Source: a virus (Duplodnaviria > Heunggongvirae > Uroviricota > Caudoviricetes). Taken from it: DNA of 19,664 nt. Both the position numbers and the translations under genes were made by a program. The stretch lies in the IMG/VR virus record IMGVR_UViG_2667527633_000005; one strand, 5' to 3'. A model generated the notes under the pieces. That model saw only the letters and a program-made list of their open reading frames with translations. It was not told where the DNA came from and made no database searches. Numbering within the stretch: the first letter of the stretch is position 1; every line of letters begins with the position of its first letter. Below, piece after piece: positions 2,413-19,160 of the stretch.

Positions 2413-2423
2413 TGTATCCCCCT

Positions 2424-2765: not shown

Positions 2766-2774
2766 TGCTCCCCC

Positions 2775-4020: not shown

Positions 4021-4031
4021 ATTGGCAATAT

Positions 4032-4792: not shown

Positions 4793-4843
4793 TTATTTTC
4801 ACCCCCCCCTCGTTTAAAAAGTTTTTAGTTGTGCCTCCCCCCC

Positions 4844-5061: not shown

Positions 5062-5077
5062 TGGCTTTTACAAAAAA

Positions 5078-7128: not shown

Positions 7129-7145
7129 ATTATTTATTCCTCGAC

Positions 7146-7367
7146 TTAACTCGACTTATTTGATAGCAGGGCACTATTTATTGCGTCATTGAGTTTTTCT
7201 GCTGATTCATCAATAAGTGACAACAGGCCATAAGCAATATTTGCATCTTCATTGTCATTTATGCAATCAAGCCACATATTTAATATTGCTTTTGCTGAAT
7301 TATTTAAAGTTAATGAACTTTCTGCACATGCTAACAATTTAAAAAAGACTTCCCGTTCTGTATTCAT
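7146..7367 (-). CDS. hypothetical protein (73 aa), encoded in a visibly AT-rich segment
   Basis: ORF in the same operon string; local base composition is much more AT-rich than the flanking genes. Confidence 0.4.
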   Translation of the reverse strand: MNTEREVFFKLLACAESSLTLNNSAKAILNMWLDCINDNEDANIAYGLLSLIDESAEKLNDAINSALLSNKSS

Positions 7368-7559
7368 TTAATCCCCCACCAGCTTACTTTCTTCCTCAAT
7401 CAAAAAACTAGCGACACTTCCCGAAAGACGCGCCAGTAGGCTCGCCAGTGCGGATATATCAGCATCTGTAATTTTGTTCGGGTATACCTCAAGAAGGCGG
7501 CAAATAATTTCTGTCTGGTGCGCACGTTCAGCGGCTTCGTGTAATGTAATTTCCTGCAT
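7368..7559 (-). CDS. hypothetical protein (63 aa)
   Basis: ORF abutting its neighbours with no gap (7367/7368; shares nt 7559 with the upstream ORF). Confidence 0.4.
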   Translation of the reverse strand: MQEITLHEAAERAHQTEIICRLLEVYPNKITDADISALASLLARLSGSVASFLIEEESKLVGD

Positions 7560-7744
7560 TAATGCACCTCTTTTAATTCATACACTGCTGAAATAATGAC
7601 TTGTGATAAGCCATATTCTGATGATTCGCTTCTCACCGCAGCAATAGCCGTCTGAACATTAACAGCCTTCACATTCTGAGCGATACCAATTGTGTGGCCT
7701 ATTGGGTTAACAGCTCGGGCAAATACACGGAAGGTTTTAAGCAT
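7559..7744 (-). CDS. hypothetical protein (61 aa), first gene of the leftward operon
   Basis: ATG at 7744 preceded by GGGAG (6-nt spacer); lies immediately downstream of the divergent control region. Confidence 0.45.
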   Translation of the reverse strand: MLKTFRVFARAVNPIGHTIGIAQNVKAVNVQTAIAAVRSESSEYGLSQVIISAVYELKEVH

Positions 7745-8025
7745 GACTCACTCCCTGGCGGATTTTTGCAGCGAATACAGCAACACAACCGGACGGGCAA
7801 CGGCTACGCGCTTCGCGTTCCGTCCAGGCGGTTACGTGGATGATTTGAGATTCTCCGGCACTCAGTGCCAGAAAACGCCACACAAAGGCCGTTTGTGTGT
7901 GTACAAGGTGTGGTATATGATTTACAGCAACCATAACGGCTCCTAGTTTACGTTGTTGGTTAGACGCCCCGTATGTGTTCCCAGCACTGCGGGGCGTTGC
8001 TCTTTGTATTTCAACAATCCTTTCG

Positions 8026-8103
8026 GTGTGTTTCATGTTATGAGCGCATGAAACACACGTCAAGGCTTTTTGTATTTCTTTTTTTGTGTATACTGAAACA
8101 CAC
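8026..8103. promoter_or_regulatory. operator-like sites in the divergent control region: GTGTGTTTCATG-N9-CATGAAACACAC (8026..8058) plus a third TGAAACACAC (8094..8103) overlapping a TATACT -10-like hexamer (8089..8094)
   Basis: Perfect 12-bp inverted repeat read directly; located 20-100 bp upstream of the RHH gene start (8125, AGGAG RBS) and within the 380-bp gap separating the two divergent transcription units. Confidence 0.5.
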
Positions 8104-8124
8104 CGATGATTAGGAGTTTCAGAA

Positions 8125-8430
8125 ATGGCAACGGCTAACAAAAACGCAAAATCACAACTGACAACTGTCAGAGTCCCACTAGATGTTATGCAAGGGATGG
8201 AATCCGTTAAGCTGGACGGTGAAAGCAATGCCGGATTTATCGTAACCGCCATGCGCGGAGAAATAGCCCGCCGCCAAGCAGAAGGCAGCGGAGAAAATCC
8301 CCTTGTGTCGTCACTGGATGCCCTGGCTAAGGTCGAACAAATCGGCATCAAAGCAGCCGAGGAGATCGGGCAACTCGTCACCGTCGCGCGTGAAGAACTC
8401 CAGCGACGCAAGGTCAAAGAGCATGAATAG
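8125..8430 (+). CDS. ribbon-helix-helix (CopG/Arc-like) DNA-binding protein; candidate island repressor
   Basis: N-terminal LTTVRVPLDVMQGMESVKLDGESNAGFIVTAMRGEI has the strand-helix-helix pattern of RHH regulators; strong AGGAG RBS; transcribed opposite to the main island operon. Confidence 0.55.
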   Translation: MATANKNAKSQLTTVRVPLDVMQGMESVKLDGESNAGFIVTAMRGEIARRQAEGSGENPLVSSLDALAKVEQIGIKAAEEIGQLVTVAREELQRRKVKEHE

Positions 8431-8487
8431 CCAATATCAGCGCCATAGTTTGAGGAACGCAGGCGCATTGCTTTACAGGACAGCACC

Positions 8488-8667
8488 ATGAGCGACACAG
8501 AATCAACCAAAACACCATCACCAACTCGTAAGAGACGACGCAAAAATATAGCGCATGAACATGAATCAGAAAGATTCGCACCTTGTTCGTTTGCTCTTGA
8601 GAAATTCCTTAAAGAGCACAGGAAAAAGCTCTCGTTGCAAACCTTGGAACGAACCAAATCTGACTGA
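8488..8667 (+). CDS. hypothetical small basic protein (59 aa)
   Basis: ATG 8488 to TGA 8665..8667 (MSDTESTKTPSPTRKRRRKNIAHEHESERF...), below the ORF-track length cut-off; follows the RHH gene and precedes a strong terminator. Confidence 0.4.
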   Translation: MSDTESTKTPSPTRKRRRKNIAHEHESERFAPCSFALEKFLKEHRKKLSLQTLERTKSD

Positions 8668-8733
8668 TCACATTGCCCACCAGCCGCAAATGTGGCATTG
8701 TTGGTGATGCTTTTGTTTTCCCTTGTTCCCACT

Positions 8734-8765
8734 GGCGACCCTTTTGCGGTCGCCTTTGTTTTGTC
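8734..8765 (+). terminator. rho-independent terminator (GGCGACC-cttttgc-GGTCGCC followed by TTTGTTTTGTC)
   Basis: 7-bp GC-rich stem with T-rich tail, read directly; placed between the convergent plus-strand pair and the Bro-N gene. Confidence 0.6.
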
Positions 8766-9342
8766 ACTGAATGCGGTTACCAAAGTAAAACTCAGGCTGA
8801 TATTCACGTATCAGCGTTTTTTCTTCTTCCTCCAGCTCACGCTTTTTGCGCTTACATGCCTGTAGCTCCCTCCCCTTCTCGCTGGCACTTATTTGATATT
8901 GCTCTTTACGGCGGGAAAAATCCTGTAATGCACCCCACGGGATACCATAAGTCCCCGTTTTTCTGATACCTGGTATCACATTTCTGAATACCCAGTTACT
9001 GAAACGATGAGCAAATGTGCCAGGCGTCGTTGCTTTGCGGCTGCGGGCTATTAGTTTGTAGAAACCTGACTCAGAGATAATTCTCATATTCTGATTTCCT
9101 CCTGGGGTGTAAGTTAAATTTACTCCCTTTTCATCATCATCAAGCATCTGCAACGCCGTACGCGAATTGGTTAGTTCCAGCGCAGCACAAACATCTTTTG
9201 CAACAAACCACGGATCGCCGTTCAGATACACCACACGAACGTTCACACTATCAAAGCGCAGAACGACGAGATCACGAATATCGCAGAATTTTTTCACTGG
9301 ACGAGCGTACCCCTTGCCCGTCACGGCAATATTTTTATTCAT
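8764..9342 (-). CDS. Bro-N domain protein (phage antirepressor-like) with coiled-coil C-terminus
   Basis: N-terminal region (..NGDPWFVAKDVCAALELTNSRTALQMLDDDEK..) is typical of Bro-N/AntA DNA-binding domains; C-terminus is charged and heptad-like (RELQACKRKKRELEEEEKTLIREY). Confidence 0.75.
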   Translation of the reverse strand: MNKNIAVTGKGYARPVKKFCDIRDLVVLRFDSVNVRVVYLNGDPWFVAKDVCAALELTNSRTALQMLDDDEKGVNLTYTPGGNQNMRIISESGFYKLIARSRKATTPGTFAHRFSNWVFRNVIPGIRKTGTYGIPWGALQDFSRRKEQYQISASEKGRELQACKRKKRELEEEEKTLIREYQPEFYFGNRIQ

Positions 9343-9362
9343 CGCGTTTTTACCTTATAGAC

Positions 9363-9385
9363 AAAAAACCCCTCGTGATGAGGGG
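9363..9385 (-). terminator. rho-independent terminator on minus strand (CCCCTC-gtgat-GAGGGG; U-tract from the A6 run 9363..9368)
   Basis: Hairpin 9369..9385 directly downstream of the alpA stop (9399), followed on the minus strand by six U. Confidence 0.5.
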
Positions 9386-9398
9386 CATTATTTACTGG

Positions 9399-9656
9399 TT
9401 ATTGCTGTTTTGTTTTTCCAGGTTTCCATCCAGGATGCCACTCACCACGGATCCATGCCTGAACCTCTGAAAGTCGATACCCTGCAGCACGTTCACCGAT
9501 CTTGATACGTCGCGGGAATTTACCTGCCTGCTCCATTTTCCAGCGTGTTGAGTTTGCCAGCGTGGTAAGTGCTATGCACTCTTTTTCACGAATGAACCGA
9601 TCAATGTCCTTCATTGTGCGCAAATCGTTTTCATCAACAAGAGAATAAATTGCCAT
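9399..9656 (-). CDS. alpA: AlpA-family transcriptional regulator / excisionase-like protein
   Basis: 85 aa; ..CIALTTLANSTRWKMEQAGKFPRRIKIGERAAGYRLSEVQAWI is typical of AlpA (prophage CP4-57 regulator family); start is 2 bp after the integrase stop. Confidence 0.85.
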   Translation of the reverse strand: MAIYSLVDENDLRTMKDIDRFIREKECIALTTLANSTRWKMEQAGKFPRRIKIGERAAGYRLSEVQAWIRGEWHPGWKPGKTKQQ

Positions 9657-9657
9657 A

Positions 9658-10899
9658 TCACACCACCTCTTTATTAAGCTCGATAACGTTGTTGTTAAAT
9701 CCTGCTATCGTATTAAGGTAATTAACCCACATATTAAGCACCTCAAGTTTTTTCTTTATATGCCTGCTTTTATTGTAAACACCAGCAACCCCTTTCACTT
9801 TATGACCTAAAAGAAGTTCGACAATATAAGGATCCGCCCCCATATCATTAAGCGTAGTGGAAAATGTGCGCCTGAAATCATGTATGCACCACAAGCCATT
9901 AGTATCATGACCAAGACGCCTGCATATTCTGTTTGCAGCCCCTGTTATTGTCGCCCTTTGCAAAGCACAACCGACAACATAACCGCGATTTTTTGTTTCT
10001 GCGTAAAGATTAACGATCCATTGTTTTATTCCGTCAGGAACAGGCCTTACTATAGCCTCCTTGTTTTTGCTGTGCTCTTTTGGGACTGTCCATACCCAGT
10101 TTTTTAAATCCCATTCGTCCCAGGTGGATAGCCTCGCCTCCTGCTGTCGGCAACCAAACACCAGGCAGATAACCATTATTCTTCGGTTATATATTGATGA
10201 CAGAGTTAGCAAATTATTACCGTAAGCATAAGACCATACATCAGCGGTTTCATTGATATTAAGAACGCGATCCCTTATACCGGATGAGCGCCCGACATAA
10301 CTTACGTTAATATCTCCAAAGGGATCGCACGCGATGTATTGCCTGACGCGACAAAAACGCAACGCCTGTTTGATATCAAGAAAAATTGCACCAGACATAA
10401 CAGGCGCATTTTTTTTGATCCTGTCAAAGACGGTAAGCCATGTGTGTAATTTGCACTGTTCTATAGCCATATCACCGATATAGGGGAAGATATGCTTTTC
10501 AAATCGTTTTATTAAATATTCATGCTCTTTTCTGGCTGTTGTGGCGTGATTGTCGTACCAGTAAAACAGCGCATCCCTTACGGTCACTGGTTGCATAGTT
10601 TTTTCGGCAGCAAGTTTTATTTGCCTGCGGGGGTCCAGATTTTCAGCCAGCCATTCACGGCACTGATCACGCATGCGCCTGGCCGTTGCAAGAGACATGT
10701 CAGGATAGCGACCAAGTGTAAGCCATACCGGAGGGGATTCCCTGCCACCAAGACGATAGTAAAAAACAAAGCTGATCCCCCCAACCATGCTTACACGCAC
10801 AGACAACCCGCGCCCATCCGCTATTGTTTTTTGTTTGTCCTGCCGTTTTCCGACAAGACTCTTTAACAGTTTGTCACTGAGTTTGTTTTCAATAGCCAT
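9658..10899 (-). CDS. int: tyrosine site-specific integrase, P4-type
   Basis: 413 aa; N-terminal arm-binding-like region (LSDKLLKSLVGKRQDKQKTIADGRGLSVRV..FYYRLGG); C-terminal catalytic motifs HDFRRT..LLGH..GVY; GAGGG RBS 7 nt before ATG 10899. Confidence 0.95.
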   Translation of the reverse strand: MAIENKLSDKLLKSLVGKRQDKQKTIADGRGLSVRVSMVGGISFVFYYRLGGRESPPVWLTLGRYPDMSLATARRMRDQCREWLAENLDPRRQIKLAAEKTMQPVTVRDALFYWYDNHATTARKEHEYLIKRFEKHIFPYIGDMAIEQCKLHTWLTVFDRIKKNAPVMSGAIFLDIKQALRFCRVRQYIACDPFGDINVSYVGRSSGIRDRVLNINETADVWSYAYGNNLLTLSSIYNRRIMVICLVFGCRQQEARLSTWDEWDLKNWVWTVPKEHSKNKEAIVRPVPDGIKQWIVNLYAETKNRGYVVGCALQRATITGAANRICRRLGHDTNGLWCIHDFRRTFSTTLNDMGADPYIVELLLGHKVKGVAGVYNKSRHIKKKLEVLNMWVNYLNTIAGFNNNVIELNKEVV

Positions 10900-10919
10900 T
10901 AAAAGCCCTCAAGAGATTT

Positions 10920-10970
10920 GCAATACACACCCATCCCGATCGCCAATTTGCAATACACATTGCAATACAC
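10920..10970. repeat. right copies of the GCAATACACA repeat (10920..10929; 21-mer gcaatacacaTtgcaatacac at 10950..10970); candidate attR/arm-type or AlpA/Int operator sites
   Basis: Direct repeat of 258..278 (20/21 identical); located in the integrase promoter region. Confidence 0.45.
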
Positions 10971-11174
10971 AAAACCGCGAAAAACTGGAAGGGTGATGAA
11001 CGGTCATCAAAAGCATGGAAAACGACATTCCAGACGCAGCAAGGGTTTCAGTGGAGTTGGCGAACGATGCGGGCAACTACGGTGAGATGATAGACATAAA
11101 TCGCCTTCACAATGGCGCTCTGCAGCTGCGTGTTCTGCAGCGTGTCGAGCATCTTCATCTGCTNNNNNNNNNNT

Positions 11175-11468
11175 GCCGGTTTTAAGGGGTTAATTTCTTC
11201 AAAAGTCAAATCTCGCCCGCAATGCTGTGACGATGACGCGATGATCATTTGTGGATGTATGGCTCGCCTGAAAAAAAACAACAGCGATTTGCATGATTTA
11301 TTGGTGGACTATTATGTCGGCGGCATGACTTTTATGGCGCTTGCACGTAAGCATGGGCGATCTGATTGTTGGGTTGGCAGGATGCTCCAGAAAGCTGAGG
11401 GCGTAGTGGAGGGCATGCTGATGGTGTTGGATCTCCGATTGGAGATGGATGCTGATTGTTCGAAATAA
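11175..11468 (+). CDS. phage antitermination protein Q-like, C-terminal portion (N-terminus lies across the N-run 11164..11173)
   Basis: ..[68 protein letters not shown]..: Cys cluster plus a sigma-region-4-like HTH, resembling small lambdoid Q proteins (DLP12 QuuD type, from memory). Context supports this: a terminator about 100 bp downstream and a lysis cassette further on. The track ORF's MALCSC.. N-terminus across the Ns is probably not real. Confidence 0.4.
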
Positions 11469-11566
11469 TTAAAAGAAAAGTTGCTGTCTGATTGTCATTA
11501 GTCTAACATTTTAAATGTTGGAATCGCAACGTAGTTATTATCATATAACAGCTTGTTTCCTGATTT

Positions 11567-11598
11567 AGCCAGCCTCCCCAAAGGCTGGTTTTTTTTCT
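11567..11598 (+). terminator. rho-independent terminator (CCAGCC-tccccaaa-GGCTGG + T8), tR'-like position downstream of the Q-like gene
   Basis: Hairpin 11569..11588 and T-run 11589..11598 read directly; a possible -35/-10 (TTGTCA ..TTAAAT) lies near 11495..11525. Confidence 0.55.
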
Positions 11599-11624
11599 AA
11601 TAAGTATCATTTCGGGTAGGGATT

Positions 11625-12149
11625 TTATTGTTTAACCCATAATAATTCATTGACATTGAATCCCAGCTTTTGAGCGGTTCGCACATAGTCTGCTTTTACT
11701 TTATCTGGAATAGTTGGGGTCCTTGCCAGAATCCATAGGTATTCTCTGTTCGGACCACTGACAAGAGCATACTTATACTCATCATCCAGTTTGATTACAT
11801 TATAGCCACCATAGAAGGGGCCAAAAAACGAAACCTTCAACGCTGCAGTTTTAGTATCTCCAGTAAAGTATGCTTTACCTTCGCTCTCGCTCCATTTATT
11901 TTTCGTTGGATCGTATCCACGGTTAAGTACACGAATCCCTCCGTCGTTCCGTTTTCCATAAGTAGCGCTGACCTGTTCCAGACCACGTTCGAACCGGTTC
12001 TCGAGGCGAGCTATTTCATACCATTTTCCGAGATAGCGGTTGGCGTCAAAATTTGTAATCGGCTGCACACCTTTAGGTGGTGTCGGGGCCTTACATGCTA
12101 TAAGAGTGAAAGAGAGTGCAATGCCAGTCAACACAGGCCATAACTTCAT
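11625..12149 (-). CDS. blc: outer-membrane lipoprotein lipocalin Blc
   Basis: Lipoprotein signal ..LTGIALSFTLIACKAP then NFDANRYLGKWYEIARLENRFERGLEQVSATY..GKAYFTGDTKTAALKVSFFGPFYGGYNVIKLD..YLWILARTPT, clearly Blc-like but only moderately similar to E. coli K-12 Blc; start set at ATG 12149 (AGGA RBS) rather than the track's 12209. Confidence 0.85.
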   Translation of the reverse strand: MKLWPVLTGIALSFTLIACKAPTPPKGVQPITNFDANRYLGKWYEIARLENRFERGLEQVSATYGKRNDGGIRVLNRGYDPTKNKWSESEGKAYFTGDTKTAALKVSFFGPFYGGYNVIKLDDEYKYALVSGPNREYLWILARTPTIPDKVKADYVRTAQKLGFNVNELLWVKQ

Positions 12150-12341
12150 AATAAATCCTGTACTTTTGATAGTTGAGGGTAAGTATGAAAGATAGATGAT
12201 TACGACCAATCACTTAAAGAACTTTTATACTATATTAGGAATAGTCCATAACAGAAAAATTGTCAGTGATGACGCCAGAAAGGCAATTTATTCCGTGCAC
12301 TACACAGTTTATCTGTTAATGAATTAGTCAAGGGGGAGGAT

Positions 12342-13301
12342 ATGATAAAAAAACCTGTGATTGGAATCAGCGGTTGTTTGGCCGGTTCTGCTGTTCGTTT
12401 TGATGGTGGTCACAAAAGAGCTGACTTTTTAATGGACAAATTAGTGGAATGGGTAACATTCAGACCAGTATGTCCGGAAATGGCTATAGGGCTGCCAGTT
12501 CCGCGTCCTGCTCTACGTCTTGTGCGCTCGACGCAAGGAAATATACGGATGTGTTTCAGCCACGACCAGAATGAGGATGTGACAGAGAGAATGACAGAGT
12601 TTAGTCGTTCTTATATGGACAAATTAAAGGATGTATCGGGGTTTGTGGTTTGTGCTAAATCTCCCAGCTGTGGCATGGAGCGCGTGCGTGTCTATGATGA
12701 AAATGGTAATCGAGGTCGTAAAGATGGAGTGGGACTATTTACGAGCACTTTGATGGAAAAGTTTTCTTGGCTACCGGTTGAAGAGGATGGGCGATTACAT
12801 GATCCAGTGCTTCGTGAGAATTTTGTTGAAAGAGTTTTTGCTTTGCATGAGCTCAATCACCTTTACAAGGAGAAATTATCAAGAAGAGAGTTATTAGCTT
12901 TTCATAGTCGTTATAAGCTTCAGTTGTTGGCGCATAGTCAGGCAGGCTATAAAGATATGGGACCATTTGTGGCTGCAATACACGAGTGGGCGGACCTTGA
13001 ATCATTCTTTGAGGTGTATCGTGATAAGCTGATGGCGATTCTCATAAAACCTGCATCACGTAAAAATCACACGAATGTGCTGATGCATATACAGGGGTAT
13101 TTTAGTAACTACTTAAGTACACGCCAGCGTAAAGAGTTGAGCGAGGTTATACTTAACTATCGTTCTGGCACATTGCCTCTTCTTGCGCCGTTGACTCTGC
13201 TGAAGCATTATCTGGGTGAGTATCCTAATGATTACTTGCTTACACAGAATTACTTCGATCCCTATCCGGAAGAACTGGCTTTAAGACTGATGGTGAATTA
13301 A
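12342..13301 (+). CDS. DUF523 (TudS-like) / DUF1722 fusion protein
   Basis: N-terminal domain with three spaced cysteines (GISGCLAG, PVCPE, SPSCG) as in DUF523 [4Fe-4S] proteins, C-terminal half YbgA/DUF1722-like; strong RBS AAGGGGGAGG; AT-rich gene. Confidence 0.6.
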   Translation: MIKKPVIGISGCLAGSAVRFDGGHKRADFLMDKLVEWVTFRPVCPEMAIGLPVPRPALRLVRSTQGNIRMCFSHDQNEDVTERMTEFSRSYMDKLKDVSGFVVCAKSPSCGMERVRVYDENGNRGRKDGVGLFTSTLMEKFSWLPVEEDGRLHDPVLRENFVERVFALHELNHLYKEKLSRRELLAFHSRYKLQLLAHSQAGYKDMGPFVAAIHEWADLESFFEVYRDKLMAILIKPASRKNHTNVLMHIQGYFSNYLSTRQRKELSEVILNYRSGTLPLLAPLTLLKHYLGEYPNDYLLTQNYFDPYPEELALRLMVN

Positions 13302-13780
13302 CTGTATGCGATATCATCTGAAAGTGATGAGTTCCTGCATGCAGGATATTTACAATCGTAAAAACTACACTATGATACCCATAGTGTCAGTTTGTATAAA
13401 AATCCTGTTCACGCTGAAGAAAATATTGAGATGCAATTTAATGTTGGTAAATATACCAGCCCCAAAATATTTTATTCAATCTGTTTTTATATAAAGATAT
13501 TTCAAGCGAATATTAAGAGCATATAATATTATTATTGCACGCAGCTATTATAATATAACAGATTAGTTTAATGATTTTTTGCGAGTTAAACACATGCTTT
13601 TATAGTTGTGATGCAATGAGATTTTCCTTATTGTTGAACTGGCGAATATTGATTACCCACCTATACTTACCTGGTGTAACCCCAATGATATCAGGTGGAT
13701 AATATGCCATACATATGTTCTATGGTGATGCCTCTAATTAGTTGAGTCTGATGTATAATACGGGCTTTTGAGGTTATCTC

Positions 13781-14053
13781 ATGGCCAGAGTTAATATTCA
13801 TTGTCCCCGTTGTCAGTCAGCTCAGGTTTACCGCCATGGTCAGAACCCTAAAGGCCGTGACAGATTTCGCTGCCGTGACTGCCACCGTGTGTTTCAGCTC
13901 ACTTATACTTATCAAGCACGTAAGCCGGGTATGAAAGAGCGGATAACTGAAATGGCCTTTAATGGTGCCGGGGTTCGCGATACCGCCAGGACACTGAAAA
14001 TTGGTATTAACACCGTCATCCGGACTTTAAAAAACTCGCGCCAAAGCGAATAA
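13781..14053 (+). CDS. insA: IS1 transposase InsA
   Basis: MARVNIHCPRCQSAQVYRHGQNPKGRDRFRCRDCHRVFQLTYTY.. has the same zinc-finger/HTH pattern as IS1 InsA ([45 protein letters not shown].., from memory). Confidence 0.85.
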   Translation: MARVNIHCPRCQSAQVYRHGQNPKGRDRFRCRDCHRVFQLTYTYQARKPGMKERITEMAFNGAGVRDTARTLKIGINTVIRTLKNSRQSE

Positions 14054-14439
14054 CTTCTTCGCCTGTTGCCCATGCTGATGTGGCGCTTATCTGCGAGCTT
14101 GATGAGCAATGGAGCTACGTTGGCAGTAAAGCCCGGCAACACTGACTCTGGTACGCGTACAACACCAAAACAGGCGGTGTACTGGCCTACACTTTTGGTC
14201 CCCGAACCGATCAAACGTGCCGGGAGCTACTGGCACTGCTTACACCCTTCAATATCGGCATGCTGACCAGCGATGACTGGGGCAGCTATGGCCGGGAGGT
14301 GCCGAAGAATAAGCATCTGACCGGCAAAATATTCACCCAACGCATTGAGCGTAATAATCTGACGCTACGCACCCGTATTAAGCGGTTGGCTCGTAAAACA
14401 ATCTGCTTCTCACGCTCAGTTGAGATCCACGAAAATTAA
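14029..14439 (+). CDS. insB: IS1 InsB segment (-1 frame; expressed as InsAB' by programmed frameshift at TTAAAAAAC 14027..14035)
   Basis: -1 frame encodes ..[73 protein letters not shown].., matching the IS1 InsB catalytic region; ends at TAA 14437..14439, earlier than canonical InsB. Confidence 0.7.
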
Positions 14440-14606
14440 TTCTTGAAGAGCGAATGGTGATGGCGGAAAGGTTATTAAGCTACAATTTATATTCTGTTGG
14501 GAAAGTTGCTGAGATATGCGGTTATGAAAATACGTCATATTTTGTAAGTGTTTTCAGAAGATATTTTGGTGTTCCTCCCCACAAATATTCATCAAGATTT
14601 TTTTAG
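14440..14606 (+). pseudogene. AraC-family regulator, C-terminal HTH remnant (5' part deleted at the IS junction)
   Basis: Frame encodes ..MAERLLSYNLYSVGKVAEICGYENTSYFVSVFRRYFGVPPHKYSSRFF*, the second HTH of AraC/XylS proteins; no N-terminal part upstream of the IS; left boundary approximate. Confidence 0.55.
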
Positions 14607-14684
14607 AAAAACACATGATGTAACGTGATGCGTTTTAATGATTTTGTAATTTTCGTATTTGATAATTTTATGATGCTTTCAGCT

Positions 14685-14716
14685 ACGCCAGAATAATCGC
14701 TGGCGTTTTTCTTTTT
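14685..14716 (+). terminator. rho-independent terminator (ACGCCAG-aataatcg-CTGGCGT + T-run)
   Basis: 7-bp stem 14685..14691/14700..14706 followed by TTTTTCTTTTT; downstream of the AraC remnant. Confidence 0.6.
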
Positions 14717-14812
14717 GAATAGATGTTCAGGCCTTACGCTAATGTAACTTCTATACCTTTCCCTCTTCGTTCCGAACCGTGTACACCATCCGTTATTTGC
14801 GGAGGTGAGGCT

Positions 14813-15028
14813 ATGAAATCCATGGACAAGTTAACAACGGGCATTGCCTACGGCACCTCCGCAGGCAGTGCTGGCTACTGGTTTTTACAGTGGCTTGATC
14901 AGGTCAGTCCATCACAGTGGGCTGCTATTGGTGTGCTGGGAAGTCTGGTTCTGGGCTTTCTGACTTACCTGACGAATCTGTACTTCAAAATAAGAGAAGA
15001 CAAGCGTAAAGCTGCGCGGGGAGAGTAA
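14813..15028 (+). CDS. class II holin, phage 21 S-type (dual-start MKSM motif)
   Basis: [71 protein letters not shown] is near-identical to S21/EssD-type holins from memory; GGAGGTGA RBS; the track ORF starts upstream at 14723. Confidence 0.9.
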
Positions 15029-15032
15029 TTCA

Positions 15033-15377
15033 ATGACTCAAAACTATGAACTGATTGTGAAAGGGATCCGCAATTTTGAGAATAAAGTTACGGTAACTTT
15101 AGCGTTACGGGACAAAAACCGCTTTGACGGTGAAATTTTTGACCTGGACATCTCGCTGGACCGTGTTGAAGGTGCCGCGCTGGAGTTTTATGAGGCAGCA
15201 GCCAGAAGGAGCATCAGACAGGTCTTCCTGGATGTTGCTGCCGGGTTATGTGAAGGGGATGAGCTGTCGCCGGAAAAGCGCCCCATAATTTTAGAGGCGC
15301 AGAATGTGTGGATAACCTACAAAGGAAAGCTACCGGGAAGAATTACTGGTTCTCTGAAGACTCCGCCGAAATGGTAA
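15033..15377 (+). CDS. hypothetical protein between holin and endolysin (possibly YdfR/DUF1327-like, from memory of Qin-type cassettes)
   Basis: 114-aa ORF starting 5 bp after the holin stop, same strand; family assignment is recollection only. Confidence 0.5.
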   Translation: MTQNYELIVKGIRNFENKVTVTLALRDKNRFDGEIFDLDISLDRVEGAALEFYEAAARRSIRQVFLDVAAGLCEGDELSPEKRPIILEAQNVWITYKGKLPGRITGSLKTPPKW

Positions 15378-15615
15378 TTTCACCAGCATATTTTTCTTCC
15401 AGTAATACCGCCAGCCACTTGAAAGAATTTTGTTGTTGCTGGGACCATTTGGGGTTGAGTGATTCAAGCTGGAGCGATGCCAGTGTTGGTTGCATTTGTT
15501 CCTTGGGAATTGAGAATGCCAGATATGAAAATGCGACAGTAAGGGCATTTACATCATCCCGAAGCTTGGAAATGCAGTCGAGCAACTCCTGTAGAGAAAT
15601 GGTGCTATTGTCCAT
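15343..15615 (-). CDS. hypothetical protein (90 aa), antisense between the holin-adjacent ORF and the endolysin
   Basis: ATG 15615 preceded by AGAGGA (6-7 nt spacer); reasonable composition; overlaps the 3' end of the 15033..15377 ORF by 35 bp. Competes with plus-strand ORF 15308..15640, which is Cys/Ser-rich and looks spurious. Confidence 0.35.
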   Translation of the reverse strand: MDNSTISLQELLDCISKLRDDVNALTVAFSYLAFSIPKEQMQPTLASLQLESLNPKWSQQQQNSFKWLAVLLEEKYAGEITISAESSENQ

Positions 15616-15720
15616 AAACAATCCTCTCTATTGTATTTAACTATTCCTTGCCTGATTCAACAGGCCGGGACAGATAAACATATCCAGGGTTCAGAAACCG
15701 ATAAATCCTGATAAATATCC

Positions 15721-16254
15721 ATGAACGTAAAAATCAGATACGGCCTGTCGGCTGCCGTTCTGGCACTGATTGCCGTCGGTGCGCCTGCGCCTGATATTCT
15801 CGACCAGTTTCTGAATGAAAAAGAAGGTAACCACACAACGGCATACCGCGATGGTTCCGGCATCTGGACCATCTGTCGGGGTGCCACGGTGGTGGATGGA
15901 AAACCCGTTTTTCCCGGTATGAAACTGTCGAAGGAAAAATGCGACCAGGTTAACGCCATTGAACGGGATAAGGCGCTGGCATGGGTGGAGCGCAATATTA
16001 AAGTGCCACTGACCGAACCACAGAAAGCGGGTATAGCGTCATTTTGTCCCTATAACATTGGCCCCGGTAAGTGTTTCCCGTCGACGTTTTATAAGCGGCT
16101 GAATGCCGGTGATCGTAAGGGTGCATGCGAGGCGATTCGCTGGTGGATAAAAGATGGTGGGCGCGATTGCCGCATACGTTCAAATAACTGCTATGGACAG
16201 GTTATTCGTCGTGACCAGGAAAGCGCATTAGCCTGTTGGGGGATAGATCAGTGA
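15721..16254 (+). CDS. SAR endolysin (phage 21 R / DLP12 RrrD-type lysozyme)
   Basis: N-terminal signal-anchor-release segment [13 protein letters not shown]; catalytic E-D-T region [20 protein letters not shown]; overall near-identity to RrrD-type lysozymes from memory. Confidence 0.9.
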
Positions 16255-16718
16255 GCAGAGTCGCCGCGATTATTTATGCTCTGGTTATCTGCATCATCGT
16301 CTGCCTGTCGTGGGCGGTCAATCATTACCGTGATAACGCCATCGCCTACAAAGAACAGCGTGATAAAAAAGTCAGTGAGCTGAAGCAGGCGACCGCCACC
16401 ATTACTGACATGCAGCAACGCCAGCGTGCTGCTGATGTACTCGATGCTAAATACACGAAGGAGTTGGCTGATGCGAAAGCTGAAAATGATGCTCTTCGGC
16501 GCAAGCTTGATAATGGTGGTCGGGTGCTCGTCAAAGGAAAATGCTCTGTGCCATCCTCAGCCGAAACCTCCAGCGCCTCCGGCATGGGCAATGATGCCAC
16601 CGTCGAACTCTCTCCAGTTGCTGGACGAAACGTTCTCGATATCCGGGACGGAATTATCCGCGACCAAACAGCACTGAGAACGCTTCAGGAATACATTAGG
16701 ACGCAATGCCTTCGATGA
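16251..16718 (+). CDS. rz: Rz i-spanin
   Basis: GTG 16251 overlaps the endolysin stop (GTGA); N-terminal [19 protein letters not shown], then a coiled-coil periplasmic domain (..[20 protein letters not shown]..) and C-terminal Cys; the track ORF starts at TTG 16236. Confidence 0.85.
16471..16677 (+). CDS. rz1: Rz1 o-spanin lipoprotein, embedded in the +1 frame of Rz
   Basis: [19 protein letters not shown] (lipobox VVGC) followed by a proline-rich segment [11 protein letters not shown]; fully inside Rz, the classic embedded arrangement. Confidence 0.75.
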
Positions 16719-16873
16719 TAGCGATAATTTTACTCATCATCCTTCACATCTGGCTCTGTAGNNNNNNNNNNCCTGTCACGCCCGGATTTTTTACAGGCGT
16801 TACCTCATTTTCATCTTTTTCATTCACTGCTCGCTGACGACAGTTACGGGCAGATTATCCATAAGGAACAGGT

Positions 16874-17509
16874 ATGAAATTACTCATCACAGCGGCGCTG
16901 GTCGCCAGTCTCAGCATTATCTCAGCGCCCCCGGTCCTCGCTGAAAATATCGTGGGTTCAGTCAGAACCTGGAAGTCCATGCAGGCAGATGGCTGGAAAT
17001 CCGCTGATGGATACGATGATAACCATATGCATAACGCACTCTATCAGGCGGTTGTACTCGACAATTATCCCTGGACGAATCACTTTTTTCTTCGCAGCAG
17101 AGATGGAGGCTCGCTTTATCTGGCAGACAAAAAATCCCTGACGGTCAGATACATTGATATAAAACCCCGTGACGAATATCCGCTACATCTCCGGATTATT
17201 TATCAGGGCAATAATGAAGGACAGGGCTGTTATTTCGCTGTCGTTGATGACCGGATGGCTAACTACTGGACAGCCGTTGAAGACAAGCTGCTCTACCAGT
17301 ATCCCGCCGTTGAAAATGTTGATGAAAAAGCGGCTGAACTCAAAAAACAGTTCACGCCGGAAGTCATGATGATGGTAAAGGACAATTGTGTTAACAAACG
17401 GCAGCAGGCAGCGCTTGCAGCCCGGCGTACTGAAAAAGACAGGGAACTGCAACAGTGGGTGGCACAGCAGAGTCTTGCTGAGCTATGCCGTCGTACCGGT
17501 AACTGCTGA
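16874..17509 (+). CDS. exported hypothetical protein (cleavable signal peptide)
   Basis: MKLLITAALVASLSIISAPPVLA-ENIVG.. signal peptide; 211 aa; AGGAACAGG RBS; no family recognised. Confidence 0.6.
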   Translation: MKLLITAALVASLSIISAPPVLAENIVGSVRTWKSMQADGWKSADGYDDNHMHNALYQAVVLDNYPWTNHFFLRSRDGGSLYLADKKSLTVRYIDIKPRDEYPLHLRIIYQGNNEGQGCYFAVVDDRMANYWTAVEDKLLYQYPAVENVDEKAAELKKQFTPEVMMMVKDNCVNKRQQAALAARRTEKDRELQQWVAQQSLAELCRRTGNC

Positions 17510-17547
17510 CGCAGTCAAAACGATATTATCAGCAAGGGATCAACGTC

Positions 17548-18003
17548 ATGAAAAAAACATACCCGCGTATTGTTGTCACTGTTCTGGCCGTTATCAGTGC
17601 TATCAGTGTTTCCGGTTGTGACAGCAAGGAAGATGCTGGCGTGAAAGCGATAGCCCGATTTAAGGACCTGACTCCACCACCGTTCAGCGATGTGGTGGCG
17701 CATAAATCCGACATCGTGCAGGAATGGGTAAAAAAGGATGCCTTCGGCACGCCGCAATACACGGTAATGAAAACCCGCCAGTCGCCGGAAGGCTGTGAGT
17801 CCGGCAGTTATTACTACATTGCCGATATGCAGCAGAAAACGGTGCAGCCGCTGATAGCCGCCCTGTGCCTTGCTGACAATATCGCCCTGAGCTTCCGGAT
17901 TGAGACCGACAGCTATACGGGTGAGAAATCGGTGGTGTATTCGCACGATGGCAAGGAAATGGGGAAACTCTACCTGCCGGAGAATCAGGAGAACAACCCA
18001 TGA
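17548..18003 (+). CDS. lipoprotein of unknown function
   Basis: MKKTYPRIVVTVLAVISAISVSGC.. with lipobox VSGC; 151 aa; AAGGGA RBS. Confidence 0.6.
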   Translation: MKKTYPRIVVTVLAVISAISVSGCDSKEDAGVKAIARFKDLTPPPFSDVVAHKSDIVQEWVKKDAFGTPQYTVMKTRQSPEGCESGSYYYIADMQQKTVQPLIAALCLADNIALSFRIETDSYTGEKSVVYSHDGKEMGKLYLPENQENNP

Positions 18004-18460
18004 GCCATAAGCTGAAAGGTGTCGTCTCTGCTGCAGCCCTGAATCTGTATTTACTGACACCGGCCCATGCTGATGTCTCTGGTGGTTTTCAGGGGCTATC
18101 AAAGGCGGCATTCCGGCCTACATCCGCGATGTAAAACACAACAACCCCTTCTGGTGTAACCAGTACAGGCTGGTGCGAAAGATGTGTGAAGTGGTCGCGC
18201 AATCGGAAAACGGGCGCGTCGCCATCGTCAGAATGGTCCCCACCGACTGGAAATGCCCCAACGGTATCTGGGGTGTGGTTGACCGTTCTGATGGTGATGC
18301 CATGGAGCTGGTCCCGGCGGCGAAAATGTCCCTGGAGCAGTACTGCAGCAAGGCATTCAGTGCAGGTTTTGTCAAACTGAAGAACAGGAAATCACTGGCC
18401 GATGTCGTGATGTACTACAACGGCAGGCCAGTCGATTCTTTCGAATACCTTGAAGAATGA
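18000..18460 (+). pseudogene. periplasmic protein gene disrupted by an apparent 1-nt frameshift (or homopolymer sequencing error)
   Basis: ATG 18000 gives signal peptide MSHKLKGVVSAAALNLYLLTPAHA then stops at 18132..18134; the -1 frame is open from 18074 to 18460 (..GAIKGGIPAYIRDVKHNNPFWC..EYLEE) and has no plausible start of its own until GTG 18173. The switch lies near the T4/G4 runs at about 18085..18095. Confidence 0.45.
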
Positions 18461-18526
18461 ACTAACCCCCGGCCTCCGGGAGACGCTTCCCGTATTCACT
18501 CAACAGAATAAAAAATAAGGAAAAGA

Positions 18527-19066
18527 ATGAACTGGCATTATGAGAAAAATGGCGTGCGTCATGACAATGTGACCGAAGCCGACATAACCGAACGCATTCA
18601 GCGCGGAGAGTTGAATGCATCAACGCTGGTATGGCAACAGGGAATGACAGAATGGCAGCCGCTGTCAGCTACACGGCTCGCAGAAGTGCTGAAACAAAGT
18701 GCGGTTCCCCCCGCGCTCCCCGGCCATCGTATCCCCGGTGGCGTGGTCTGGACGCTGGCTTTTGCTCCCCTGATTGGGTATGCCCTGGAAATATGGACTG
18801 CAGGGCTGAGCGGAATGGAATTTGAGGAAGCGTATGCCGCAGTAAGTGAAGGGCAATACTGGTTTATCACGCTGATACTGAATATTGCGCTGGGATATCT
18901 GGATGAACGGCGGCTCCGTAAATCCGGCGTGGATACCACCGCCTTTGGCTGGCTGGCCTGGCTGGTACCGTTTTATCTGTGGCGTCGGGCAAAGGCCCTC
19001 AGTCAGAAACCGGCTTACTTCTGGGTCTGGCTGGTCGCGCTGATACTGGTACTGCTGACTGGCTGA
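18527..19066 (+). CDS. DUF4339 (GYF-like N-terminal domain) membrane protein
   Basis: N-terminus MNWHYEKNGVRHDNVTEADITERIQRGELNASTLVWQQGMTEWQPL is the pattern I associate with DUF4339; C-terminal half has several hydrophobic helices (..WFITLILNIALGYL.., ..FWVWLVALILVLLTG). Confidence 0.55.
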   Translation: MNWHYEKNGVRHDNVTEADITERIQRGELNASTLVWQQGMTEWQPLSATRLAEVLKQSAVPPALPGHRIPGGVVWTLAFAPLIGYALEIWTAGLSGMEFEEAYAAVSEGQYWFITLILNIALGYLDERRLRKSGVDTTAFGWLAWLVPFYLWRRAKALSQKPAYFWVWLVALILVLLTG

Positions 19067-19160
19067 TGGTTATTCAGCAGAAGGAATGCTGAACATCACC
19101 GTTTAATTGCAATCGCTATTATCAACACATTAACAGTATTCATTACTTAAGGACAATATC

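What the first reader, a model, noticed from the sequence alone, without database searches (positions are those of the whole stretch)
11175..14812. Cargo locus between a Q-like antiterminator/tR' and the holin gene: divergent blc, DUF523/DUF1722 protein, truncated IS1, AraC fragment
Seen: a Q-like gene and tR'-like terminator are followed by about 3.2 kb of unrelated, AT-richer genes before the S21-type holin. Established: the Q-to-S interval is a classic moron site in lambdoid phages (stx in Stx phages, nmpC in DLP12). The Blc here is clearly a lipocalin but only moderately similar to E. coli K-12 Blc, so it looks like an imported paralogue; the DUF523 domain belongs to the TudS-like [4Fe-4S] desulfidase family and is fused to DUF1722. 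Caveat: the N-run at 11164..11173 sits inside the Q region.
Basis: partly seen in the sequence, partly recalled or inferred. Interest (0 to 1): 0.5.

Follow-up and report, generated by a model that had tools for sequence, protein, structure and literature searches.

The report
Known blc–rudS cargo in lambdoid prophage
This is a decayed copy of a common, already described accessory-gene cassette of E. coli lambda-like prophages: an outer-membrane lipocalin, a tRNA 4-thiouridine-removing enzyme, and a regulator gene here destroyed by an IS1 remnant, all lying between the late-gene antiterminator and the lysis genes, so it is real but ordinary.

Summary
On one gap-free draft contig (11174-16761) lie a Q antiterminator 3' fragment, a strong intrinsic terminator, and about 3.2 kb of AT-richer cargo. 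The cargo holds blc on the minus strand, a 319-aa DUF523-DUF1722 gene, an IS1 remnant and the 3' end of an AraC-family gene. An S21-type holin, ydfR, a lysozyme and Rz follow.

The N-run at 11164-11173 is a contig spacer. The sequence to its left belongs to an unrelated P4-like satellite next to a portal-gene remnant, so only 97 of 125 Q codons are present and Q integrity is unknown.

The cassette is not new. The blc+rudS stretch matches in 1152 of 5426 complete E. coli genomes, mostly in Qin-type prophages. It also occurs in cultured lambdoid phages such as 1H12, the Lambda_ev series and IdasGreatGrand.

The DUF523-DUF1722 protein is 92% identical to RudS_vir of phage 1H12, which lowers tRNA 4-thiouridine when overexpressed in E. 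coli (Jamontas 2024). blc was already listed as a frequent lambda moron (Mathieu 2020). The regulator is a YdeO/PatE-like paralogue.

Only the 265-270-bp deletion that removes the right end of IS1 is private to this strain. Novelty: already known. Interest is low.

The parts
11164..11173 (.). 10-N spacer joining two unrelated draft contigs. The left side is a P4-like satellite next to a truncated portal gene; the right side is the Qin-type prophage contig.
   Evidence: Four identical 10-N runs in the window. The left flank continues into a portal and terminase in complete genomes, not into Q. An alignment with intact Q loci shows homology only from 11174 onward.
11175..11468 (+). 3' fragment of the late-gene antiterminator Q: 97 of 125 codons plus the stop. 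It is QuuD-like at its first ~30 codons and matches the blc-linked allele afterwards.
   Evidence: PF06530 6.5e-33. Alignment to intact 125-aa Q genes. The intact allele is 86% identical to K-12 QuuD. Fragment translation.
11469..11566 (+). Spacer between Q and the terminator, the expected place of the late promoter pR' and the Q-loading site. A candidate is TTGCTG-17-TAACAT at 11481-11509. The promoter is not established.
   Evidence: The consensus scan found no strong sigma-70 site here. The stretch is about 97% conserved among five loci, including two cultured phages. The promoter assignment is inference.
11567..11598 (+). tR'-like intrinsic terminator: a 9-bp G+C-rich stem, a 6-nt loop and eight U.
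   Evidence: -14.2 kcal/mol, z -3.36, 0 of 200 shuffles as good. The stem and loop are invariant in five loci. The opposite strand has the hairpin but no U-tract.
11625..12149 (-). blc paralogue: a 174-aa outer-membrane lipocalin lipoprotein with lipobox LIAC (Cys19, Lys at +2). The ORF is intact and antisense to the late operon.
   Evidence: Lipocalin_2 1e-43. NCBIfam NF007786 316 bits, above the 267 cut-off. PDB Blc 3MBT 3.5e-69 at 64% identity. 97% identical to phage 1H12 gp65.
12150..12341 (.). 192-bp, 34%-GC divergent intergenic region between blc and rudS, presumed to hold their own promoters.
   Evidence: Composition. The same divergent arrangement, with 188 bp between the genes, occurs in the Citrobacter sedlakii chromosome. 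No consensus promoter was found. Promoter presence is inferred.
12342..13301 (+). rudS: a 319-aa fusion of a TudS-type [4Fe-4S] desulfidase domain and DUF1722 (tRNA 4-thiouridine desulfidase). The ORF is intact, with Cys12, Cys44 and Cys110.
   Evidence: PF04463 3.8e-40 and PF08349 5.7e-40. 92% identical over 319 aa to phage 1H12 gp66, which is RudS_vir. Cysteine positions equal those listed for RudS_vir and RudS_ST in PMC11417400 Table 1. Weak direct match to the TudS structure 6Z92.
13302..13703 (.). 31%-GC spacer upstream of the regulator gene, with a strong hairpin at 13358-13397. The 62-aa ORF 13306-13494 is probably not a gene.
   Evidence: Hairpin -13.6 kcal/mol, z -5.2. The ORF has no Pfam hit, and an indel in IdasGreatGrand interrupts this stretch.
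13704..13723 (+). First 20 nt (ATG plus six codons) of the AraC/XylS-family regulator gene, cut off by IS1.
   Evidence: Alignment with the intact genes of CFSAN061769 and IdasGreatGrand.
13724..14435 (+). IS1-family remnant, about 712 of 766 bp. The left inverted repeat (GGTGATGCCTCTAATTAG) and insA (13781-14053) are present. insB has an in-frame TGA at 14143-14145. The last ~52 bp, including the right inverted repeat, are deleted.
   Evidence: InsA and InsB Pfam hits. Alignment to the complete copy in PK8566. Frame translation showing the stop.
14436..14606 (+). 3' fragment (56 codons plus stop) of the YdeO/PatE-like AraC-family regulator. Only part of the second helix-turn-helix remains, so it is a pseudogene.
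   Evidence: HTH_18 1.8e-09. The intact homologues are 237-243 aa and match the YdeO model best, at 108-113 bits against a 348 cut-off. Deletion end-points.
14685..14716 (+). Second intrinsic-terminator-like hairpin with a T-run, closing the cargo about 100 nt upstream of the holin.
   Evidence: -12.1 kcal/mol, z -2.0. The hairpin is nearly invariant (one base differs in CFSAN061769) in the four aligned loci. Homology with other essD loci starts at about this point or later.
14813..15028 (+). S21-type class II holin, 71 aa, with a dual-start motif (MKSM). It is the first gene of the lysis cassette, followed by ydfR 15033-15377, lysozyme 15721-16254 and Rz 16251-16718.
   Evidence: PF04971 1e-34. 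Translation. Phage_lysozyme 1.3e-24 and Phage_lysis 7.8e-29.

Best explanation
The region is the accessory (moron) cassette in the late operon of a Qin-type lambdoid prophage of E. coli. It lies between the Q antiterminator with its tR'-like terminator and the S21-type holin.

The original cassette has three genes:
- **blc**, an outer-membrane lipocalin lipoprotein, on the opposite strand.
- **rudS**, a [4Fe-4S] desulfidase fused to a DUF1722 tRNA-binding domain. It converts the UVA-sensitive 4-thiouridine of tRNA back to uridine.
- **A YdeO/PatE-like AraC-family regulator gene.**

In this strain an IS1 entered the regulator gene 20 nt after its ATG. Deletions then removed most of that gene and the right end of IS1. 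blc and rudS remain intact.

Likely operation (inferred):
- In the lysogen, blc and rudS are transcribed from their own divergent promoters and act as host-benefit genes. They would provide envelope lipid maintenance, and fewer tRNA photocrosslinks with a shorter UVA growth delay.
- After induction, Q-modified RNA polymerase reads through both terminators. It crosses the cargo, sense for rudS and antisense for blc, and reaches the lysis genes.
- Whether this copy's own Q is intact cannot be told from the window.
For: **Shown**
- Domain identities of every part.
- Two intrinsic terminators bracket the cargo.
- The cargo is 42% GC against 50-52% for the lysis genes.
- The same gene order, hokD-rem-ydfU-Q-blc-rudS-HTH-essD-ydfR-rrrQ, is seen in complete genomes, with and without IS1.
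- The blc+rudS stretch matches in 1152 of 5426 complete E. coli genomes, and the regulator gene in 922.
- The same module is in cultured phages 1H12 and IdasGreatGrand and about ten Lambda_ev phages.
- RudS is 92% identical to 1H12 gp66. That protein is RudS_vir, which lowered tRNA s4U when expressed in E. coli. RudS_KT overexpression diminished UVA growth delay (PMC11417400).
- Cys12, Cys44 and Cys110 are conserved.
- blc is reported as a moron in more than 50% of 19 intestinal lambdas (PMC6969025).
- The IS1 and deletion anatomy comes from alignments.
- K-12 carries other cargo at the same site.

**Inferred**
- The cargo genes' own promoters, Q-dependent read-through, and any physiological benefit.
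Against: - No consensus sigma-70 promoter was found for pR' or in the blc-rudS intergenic region.
- The 5' end of Q is missing at a contig edge. Another strain has an IS1 in Q 3 nt from that edge, so this Q may be broken.
- RudS_vir was the less active of the tested RudS enzymes on tRNA despite good expression.
- Insertion sequences hit the cassette repeatedly. IS1 is in the regulator here and in at least four complete genomes, IS3 truncates rudS in BL21, and ISEc43 sits between Q and blc in strain 600029. This fits weak selection in defective prophages.
Confidence: 0.88

Rival explanations
1. The arrangement is an assembly artefact. Under this reading the Q fragment, the cargo and the lysis cassette are not truly adjacent, or the cargo is chromosomal rather than phage DNA.
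For: The window is a concatenation of contigs with 10-N spacers, and one spacer touches Q. The sequences on the two sides of each spacer are not neighbours in complete genomes.
Against: There is no N between 11174 and 16761. The same order occurs in 142 complete genomes at 80% coverage or more. It also occurs in packaged, cultured phage genomes.
Confidence: 0.02
2. The DUF523-DUF1722 protein works mainly as a TudS-like free-base (thiouracil) desulfidase for pyrimidine salvage, not as a tRNA modification eraser.
For: The N-terminal domain is the Pfam '2-thiouracil desulfurase' family. RudS_vir gave the shortest lag on 4-thiouracil among the RudS enzymes tested.
Against: No RudS supported uracil-auxotroph growth the way TudS did. 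All tested RudS enzymes, including RudS_vir, lowered tRNA s4U. The DUF1722 domain mediates tRNA binding (PMC11417400).
Confidence: 0.1
3. In this strain the cassette is functionally inert, hitch-hiking DNA in a decaying cryptic prophage. The intact blc and rudS ORFs would simply not have been hit yet.
For: The regulator gene is destroyed by IS1 plus two deletions, and the IS1 itself is dead. Other strains carry IS3, ISEc43 or IS1 in rudS, next to blc, or in Q. The relatives' prophages are heavily decayed.
Against: blc and rudS are intact here. The stretch is 95-99% conserved in most of the 1152 genomes that match it, and it is present in viable phages.
Confidence: 0.25
4. rudS is chiefly a lytic-cycle auxiliary gene. 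It would be expressed from pR' by Q read-through after UV/SOS induction, to keep tRNA chargeable and damp the stringent response while late proteins are made. It would not be a lysogenic-conversion gene.
For: rudS and the regulator gene are co-oriented with the late operon, between tR' and the holin, where stx sits in Stx phages (general knowledge). No own promoter was detected. s4U photocrosslinking causes translation arrest and a ppGpp burst.
Against: The chromosomal homologues have the same divergent blc-rudS layout without any phage promoter. There is no expression data. A terminator-like hairpin follows rudS.
Confidence: 0.3

Closest known systems
Q-blc-rudS-regulator-holin module of Escherichia phage 1H12 (NC_049947, gp64-gp68) and related intestinal lambdoid phages (Lambda_ev series, IdasGreatGrand)
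   Same: Same genes, order and strands. Blc is 97% and RudS 92% identical, and the tR' hairpin is identical. IdasGreatGrand is 97% identical at the DNA level over the shared part.
   Different: Those phages have a complete Q and an intact 243-aa regulator, and no IS1. Their lysis cassette lacks ydfR. The window copy lies in a Qin-type cryptic prophage context by analogy with PK8566 and CFSAN061769.
RudS tRNA 4-thiouridine desulfidases (Jamontas et al. 2024, NAR; RudS_vir, RudS_ST/ORF319 STM1389, RudS_KT)
   Same: TudS-DUF1722 fusion of 319 aa, with cluster cysteines at 12, 44 and 110 exactly as in RudS_vir and RudS_ST.
   Different: Chromosomal rudS genes usually sit with MerR/LitR-type light regulators or photolyase genes (Enterobacter locus). 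The phage copy has no MerR gene and is followed by an AraC-family gene. Its GC is 43% against 54-59% for chromosomal homologues.
E. coli K-12 Blc (PDB 3MBT, 1QWD, 2ACO)
   Same: Lipocalin_2 fold family, lipoprotein signal, same length class, and passes the NCBIfam Blc model.
   Different: Only 64% identical. It is closer (about 80%) to the Blc encoded divergently from rudS in Enterobacter, Leclercia and Citrobacter sedlakii. It is prophage-borne rather than in the K-12 chromosomal blc context, which I know to be next to ampC.
Other Q-to-S cargo in lambdoid prophages: nmpC in DLP12, cspB/cspF in K-12 Qin, stx in Stx phages
   Same: Same insertion site, downstream of Q and upstream of the S21-type holin. 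nmpC is likewise on the opposite strand and IS-disrupted. The Q allele is 86% identical to QuuD.
   Different: The gene content differs. No E. coli genome was found with this Q 3' flank and this holin 5' flank adjacent without the cargo.
Prophage-encoded AraC-like regulators of acid resistance and T3SS (PatE, PsrA/PsrB, AppY)
   Same: The intact regulator is prophage-borne and full-length YdeO-like. It is 53% identical over 235 aa to Sakai Sp1 ECs_0287, which is probably the PatE orthologue.
   Different: It is a paralogue, not an orthologue. It lies below the YdeO and GadX equivalog cut-offs, its regulon is unknown, and in the window it is a 56-codon remnant.

Membership tests
Phage antiterminator Q (Pfam PF06530, QuuD/82-type) | Profile match above the gathering score | tested here: met
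   113.6 bits against a cut-off of 26 on the fragment. 171.6 bits for the intact allele.
Phage antiterminator Q (Pfam PF06530, QuuD/82-type) | Complete reading frame | tested here: not met
   The first 28 codons are missing at the contig edge, and the sequence left of the N-run is unrelated. This may reflect the assembly rather than the biology.
Phage antiterminator Q (Pfam PF06530, QuuD/82-type) | Followed by a late promoter and tR' terminator and then the lysis genes | tested here: inconclusive
   The terminator lies 99 nt after the stop, and the holin is downstream on the same strand. The promoter and Q-binding site were not identified.
Phage antiterminator Q (Pfam PF06530, QuuD/82-type) | Antitermination activity | not testable with these tools
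   Needs reporter or RNA-seq assays.
RudS (TudS-DUF1722 tRNA s4U desulfidase) | N-terminal DUF523/TudS domain fused to C-terminal DUF1722 | tested here: met
   PF04463 covers residues 7-149 and PF08349 covers residues 192-309.
RudS (TudS-DUF1722 tRNA s4U desulfidase) | Three conserved cysteines that ligate the [4Fe-4S] cluster | tested here: met
   Cys12, Cys44 and Cys110 are present, the same positions as RudS_vir and RudS_ST. Cys12 and Cys44 align with TudS 6Z92 Cys10 and Cys43.
RudS (TudS-DUF1722 tRNA s4U desulfidase) | Close relationship to an experimentally tested member | tested here: met
   92% identity over 319 aa without gaps to 1H12 gp66, which is RudS_vir.
RudS (TudS-DUF1722 tRNA s4U desulfidase) | Removal of s4U from tRNA | not testable with these tools
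   Needs LC-MS of tRNA nucleosides for this allele.
Bacterial lipocalin Blc | Lipocalin_2 domain and the NCBIfam Blc subfamily score | tested here: met
   149 bits in Pfam. 316.1 bits against a cut-off of 267.
Bacterial lipocalin Blc | Lipoprotein signal peptide with lipobox and an outer-membrane sorting residue | tested here: met
   The sequence reads MKLWPVLTGIALSFTLIAC-K, with Cys19 and no Asp at +2. The sorting rule is from general knowledge.
IS1 insertion sequence | insA and insB reading frames | tested here: inconclusive
   insA is complete at 90 aa. insB is interrupted by TGA at 14143-14145 and truncated at its 3' end.
IS1 insertion sequence | Two terminal inverted repeats | tested here: not met
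   The left repeat is at 13724. The right repeat, present in PK8566 (GGTAGTGCATCCAATTAG on the complementary strand), is deleted here. It is an immobile remnant.
AraC/XylS regulator (YdeO/PatE-like) | C-terminal double helix-turn-helix plus N-terminal domain | tested here: not met
   Only 56 C-terminal codons remain (HTH_18 positions 36-79 of 80). The intact homologues are 237-243 aa.
Phage moron | Dispensable gene block between conserved phage genes, with deviant composition | tested here: met
   42% GC against 50-52%. Other lambdoid prophages carry different genes at this site.
Phage moron | Own promoter and terminator, and expression from the repressed prophage | tested here: inconclusive
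   Terminators were found. No consensus promoter was found. Expression was not tested.

The most novel reading that the evidence does not exclude
The conserved divergent blc-rudS pair may be a light/UV-stress module that lambdoid phages captured for their own use. UV both induces the prophage and photocrosslinks tRNA s4U. Phage-encoded RudS, boosted by Q read-through, would erase s4U, prevent the UVA translation arrest and ppGpp burst, and so protect late-protein synthesis and burst size. Its presence in about a fifth of complete E. coli genomes would also make UVA growth delay a strain-dependent, prophage-determined trait.
Probability: 0.2. Interest if true: 0.45.

Novelty: already known. Interest (0 to 1): 0.15.

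Why it matters
It matters little for discovery. The cassette is annotated in over a thousand complete genomes, blc was already catalogued as a common lambda moron, and the orthologous phage RudS has been assayed.

Two practical points follow:
- Statements that E. coli lacks RudS hold for K-12 but not for the species. The blc+rudS stretch matches in 1152 of 5426 complete genomes (21%), and B strains carry an IS3-truncated copy. This could confound UVA and s4U experiments.
- Windows built from concatenated draft contigs create chimeric ORFs across N spacers, which must be recognised before gene neighbourhoods are interpreted.

Tried and rejected
- **Cargo-less allele.** I joined the Q-3'/tR' flank to the holin-5' flank and searched for genomes where they are adjacent. 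None of 5426 has this, so exact insertion boundaries could not be drawn. The right-hand homology with other essD loci begins between about 14678 and 14783.
- **Private deletion junction.** I searched for the junction at 14433-14436. No complete genome has it as one piece. Four cover it only as two pieces about 265 bp apart.
- **Rfam and tRNA scans of the contig.** Only a sub-threshold hit on the terminator appeared (30.5 bits against 50), and there were no tRNAs. No known ncRNA or Stx-phage-like tRNA cluster is present.
- **Consensus promoter scan.** The count equalled the shuffled expectation (9 against 9.1), and nothing convincing was found for pR' or the blc/rudS promoters.
- **ORF 13306-13494 (62 aa).** It has no Pfam hit and is not conserved, so I rejected it as a gene.
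- **Recent donor for the cargo.** The best chromosomal RudS is 77% identical and the best Blc about 81%, and their GC is 10-15 points higher. No recent donor was identified.
- **Same IS1 insertion as strain 600029.** The contig edge reads as Q sequence, not as an IS1 end. The edge is better explained by a repeat shared with a QuuD-type Q elsewhere in the genome. This remains unresolved.
- **PatE and PsrB primary papers.** They are not held in the library, so I used a review.
- **Structure prediction and large protein-database searches.** I did not run them because 92-97% identity to characterised or annotated phage proteins made them unnecessary.

Full report
**1. What the window is**

The 19.7-kb window is not one piece of DNA. 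It holds four 10-N runs, at 6-15, 11164-11173, 16762-16771 and 19622-19631.

- The stretch left of 11164 matches, at 100% identity in many complete E. coli genomes, a P4-like satellite next to a truncated portal gene of a DLP12-like prophage. The satellite carries a tyrosine integrase at 9658-10899 (-), an AlpA-type regulator, a BRO-N protein and a primase. In those genomes the sequence runs on into the head-tail joining, terminase and nohD genes, not into Q.
- The stretch right of 16771 matches a different island, with a YfjS/YafY lipoprotein and a WYL-domain protein.
- The finding therefore sits on a 5588-bp draft contig, 11174-16761.
- An alignment with intact loci shows homology to Q only from 11174 onward. 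The 118-aa ORF 11112-11468 is a chimera across the spacer.

**2. Check of the observation**

- **Q:** 11175-11468 encodes the last 97 of 125 residues of a Q antiterminator. PF06530 gives 6.5e-33 on the fragment and 6.9e-51 on the intact allele.
- **Terminator:** 99 nt downstream lies a strong intrinsic terminator, 11567-11598. It folds at -14.2 kcal/mol, z -3.4, and none of 200 shuffles does as well. The hairpin is invariant in five loci, including two cultured phages.
- **Cargo composition:** from there to the holin ATG at 14813 is 3216 bp at 41.9% GC. The holin, lysozyme and Rz genes are 50-52% GC.
- **Lysis cassette:** the holin is S21-type (PF04971, 1e-34) with the dual-start motif MKSM. 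ydfR, a lysozyme and Rz follow it.

**3. Anatomy of the cargo**

- **blc, 11625-12149 (-).** A 174-aa lipoprotein with lipobox LIAC. It passes both the Pfam Lipocalin_2 model and the NCBIfam Blc model (316 bits against 267). It is 64% identical to crystallised E. coli Blc.
- **Intergenic region.** A 192-bp AT-rich stretch separates blc from the divergent rudS.
- **rudS, 12342-13301 (+).** A 319-aa protein with a TudS/DUF523 domain and a DUF1722 domain (3.8e-40 and 5.7e-40). It has cysteines at 12, 44 and 110.
- **Spacer.** A 31%-GC stretch follows, with a strong hairpin at 13358-13397 (z -5.2).
- **Regulator gene.** An AraC/XylS-family gene starts at 13704. It is interrupted after 20 nt by an IS1-family element whose left inverted repeat begins at 13724.

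Comparison with PK8566 (complete IS1) and with CFSAN061769 and IdasGreatGrand (intact gene) gives a three-step history:

1. IS1 inserted into the regulator gene.
2. About 312 bp of the 5' part of the gene next to the IS were lost. At least four complete genomes share this state (PK8566, 23AR0885, MB06171 and MY203L1).
3. A further deletion of about 265-270 bp has its junction at a 3-nt AAA microhomology (14433-14435). It removed the last ~52 bp of IS1, including the right inverted repeat, and about 215 bp more of the gene.

insB also carries an in-frame TGA at 14143-14145. The third step is private to this strain. No complete genome contains the junction as one piece.

What remains of the regulator gene is 56 codons of the second helix-turn-helix (14436-14606). 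A second terminator-like hairpin at 14685-14716 closes the cassette.

**4. Relatives**

- The 4.2-kb stretch is found at 80% coverage or more in 142 complete E. coli genomes.
- The blc+rudS stretch alone matches in 1152 of 5426 genomes (1047 at 80% coverage or more, mostly 95-99% identical). The regulator gene matches in 922.
- Annotated contexts are Qin-type prophages: hokD-rem-ydfU-Q-lipocalin-'YbgA family'-HTH-essD-ydfR-rrrQ.
- BL21 and C43(DE3) carry the module, with rudS truncated by IS3.
- The module is also in packaged, cultured lambdoid phages: 1H12, about ten Lambda_ev or Lambda_x phages, and IdasGreatGrand. It is therefore genuine phage cargo.
- No genome has the two flanks adjacent without the cargo.
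- K-12 shows different cargo at the same site: cspF/cspB in Qin, and IS5-disrupted, opposite-strand nmpC in DLP12.
- The Q allele is 86% identical to QuuD. The first ~30 codons of the window's fragment read like QuuD (SKVKSRP, ICGC). This mosaic boundary could explain the contig break as a repeat shared between prophages.
- Strain 600029 has an IS1 in Q 3 nt from the same point. The integrity of this copy's Q is unknown.

**5. What the genes do**

*rudS.* The protein is 92% identical, without gaps, to 1H12 gp66. Jamontas et al. (NAR 2024, PMC11417400) synthesised that gene as 'RudS_vir'.

- They showed that TudS-DUF1722 fusions (RudS) remove the 4-thiouridine modification from tRNA in E. coli.
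- The [4Fe-4S] TudS domain is catalytic and DUF1722 binds tRNA.
- Overexpression of RudS_KT diminishes the UVA-induced growth delay.
- RudS_vir was active on tRNA, although less so than RudS_KT or RudS_ST. It gave the shortest lag on 4-thiouracil.
- The cluster cysteines they list for RudS_vir and for Salmonella ORF319 (12, 44, 110) are those of the window protein.
- The paper says E. coli lacks RudS. That holds for K-12 but not for the fifth of complete genomes that carry this prophage module.

*blc.* Mathieu et al. (Nat Commun 2020, PMC6969025) listed blc among the morons present in more than half of 19 intestinal lambda-type phages. The window Blc is 97% identical to 1H12 gp65.

*Regulator.* The intact protein matches the YdeO model end to end but far below its cut-off (108-113 bits against 348). 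GadX and HilD are the next best matches.

- The 1H12 copy is 53% identical to Sakai Sp1 ECs_0287. I take that protein to be the PatE (Z0321, OI-8) orthologue, on the basis of a review and my own knowledge that Sp1 corresponds to CP-933H.
- It therefore belongs to the class of prophage-borne AraC-like regulators (PatE, PsrA/B, AppY). Its targets are unknown, and in this window it is dead.

**6. Origin of the cargo**

- Species-representative genomes hold RudS homologues of 66-77% identity in Citrobacter, Kluyvera, Enterobacter, Leclercia, Klebsiella, Pectobacterium and others.
- In most Enterobacter and Leclercia loci, and in Citrobacter sedlakii, a Blc about 80% identical to the phage Blc lies upstream on the opposite strand. 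That is closer than E. coli's own Blc.
- In C. sedlakii the two genes are directly adjacent (188 bp apart), between a BCCT transporter gene and a pseudouridine synthase gene.
- In Enterobacter a MerR/MlrA-like regulator gene and a transthyretin-like gene lie between them. This matches the MerR linkage noted by Jamontas et al..
- The divergent blc-rudS pair is thus an old enterobacterial chromosomal unit that a lambdoid phage acquired as a block.
- The phage copy is much more AT-rich (43% against 54-59% GC), and no near-identical donor was found. The capture is not recent, or the donor is unsampled.

**7. How it most likely works**

Shown: gene identities, intact blc and rudS, a dead regulator gene and a dead IS1, two terminators, and the position inside the late operon.

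Inferred:
- In a lysogen, blc and rudS are expressed from promoters in the 192-bp divergent region. The chromosomal homologues have the same layout without a phage promoter.
- Blc would support outer-membrane lipid maintenance. RudS would lower tRNA s4U and hence UVA photocrosslinking, translation arrest and the stringent response.
- After induction, Q-modified polymerase starting between 11469 and 11566 reads through 11598 and transcribes rudS in sense and blc in antisense. It then passes 14716 and expresses the holin, ydfR, the lysozyme and Rz, as stx is expressed in Stx phages (general knowledge).
- No convincing sigma-70 consensus was found for either promoter, so these steps need transcript mapping.

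**8. Verdict**

The observation and interpretation are correct apart from the nature of the N-run and the updated function (RudS rather than TudS). The object is already known. It is annotated in over a thousand complete genomes, present in cultured phages, catalogued as a moron, and its key enzyme's orthologue has been assayed. Only the terminal deletion of the IS1 is strain-specific. Interest is low (0.15).

The most novel reading still open is that phage-borne RudS serves phage development after UV induction. I give it a probability of about 0.2 and moderate interest if true.

Noticed in passing
window 6-15, 11164-11173, 16762-16771, 19622-19631: The window is at least four draft contigs glued with 10-N spacers. 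Neighbours across the spacers are not adjacent in complete genomes, so ORFs and gene neighbourhoods spanning them are artefacts.
   Followed up: yes
window 16-11163 (integrase 9658-10899 -, primase 5078-6832 -): A P4-like satellite (integrase, AlpA-type regulator, BRO-N, DUF4222, primase, Icd-like, SSB, capsid-like gene) lies next to a truncated portal gene of a DLP12-like prophage, as in strain Z0117EC0116.
   Followed up: partly
window 10918-10972: Three copies of TTGCAATACACA lie just upstream of the satellite integrase start. They may be arm-type or regulatory binding sites. Not analysed.
   Followed up: no
window 11174-11220; L070 4100-4900: The contig edge in Q lies 3 nt from the point where strain 600029 has an IS1 in the same gene (target duplication CGGTTTTA). 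The window's first ~30 Q codons read like K-12 QuuD, whereas the rest matches the blc-linked allele. This is a mosaic or repeat boundary that probably broke the assembly.
   Followed up: partly
L001 4318-6315 versus L012 3249-5246: The Qin-type prophage of strain PK8566 carries a BCCT transporter gene. Its product is 95% identical to the BCCT that sits directly beside blc-rudS in the Citrobacter sedlakii chromosome. Blc and RudS themselves are only 80% and 75% identical. This hints at repeated uptake from the same chromosomal neighbourhood.
   Followed up: partly
L071 (E. coli BL21) 3493-6082: BL21 and C43(DE3) carry the same Q-blc module, but rudS is cut after about 49 codons by an IS3-family element and the lysis genes are gone.
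   Followed up: partly
L058 and L063 (MAG 'Candidatus Nanosynbacter sp.' D148_maxbin.008): Short contigs that carry this E. coli phage module (Q 98%, Blc 99%, RudS 93-100% identical) are binned in a Saccharibacteria MAG. This is almost certainly mis-binning.
   Followed up: no
window 13358-13397: A strong hairpin (-13.6 kcal/mol, z -5.2) without a U-tract lies in the 31%-GC spacer after rudS. Its arms vary among relatives without clear compensation. Its role is unknown.
   Followed up: partly
window 15343-15615 (-): A 90-aa ORF on the opposite strand lies between ydfR and the lysozyme gene. It is annotated as a conserved hypothetical protein (WP_000370545.1) in relatives and has no Pfam or NCBIfam hit.
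   Followed up: no
window 16772-19621: The third contig matches a YfjS/YafY lipoprotein, DUF4339 and WYL-domain island at 99.9-100% identity in a few genomes, including strain 600029. It is unrelated to the finding.
   Followed up: no
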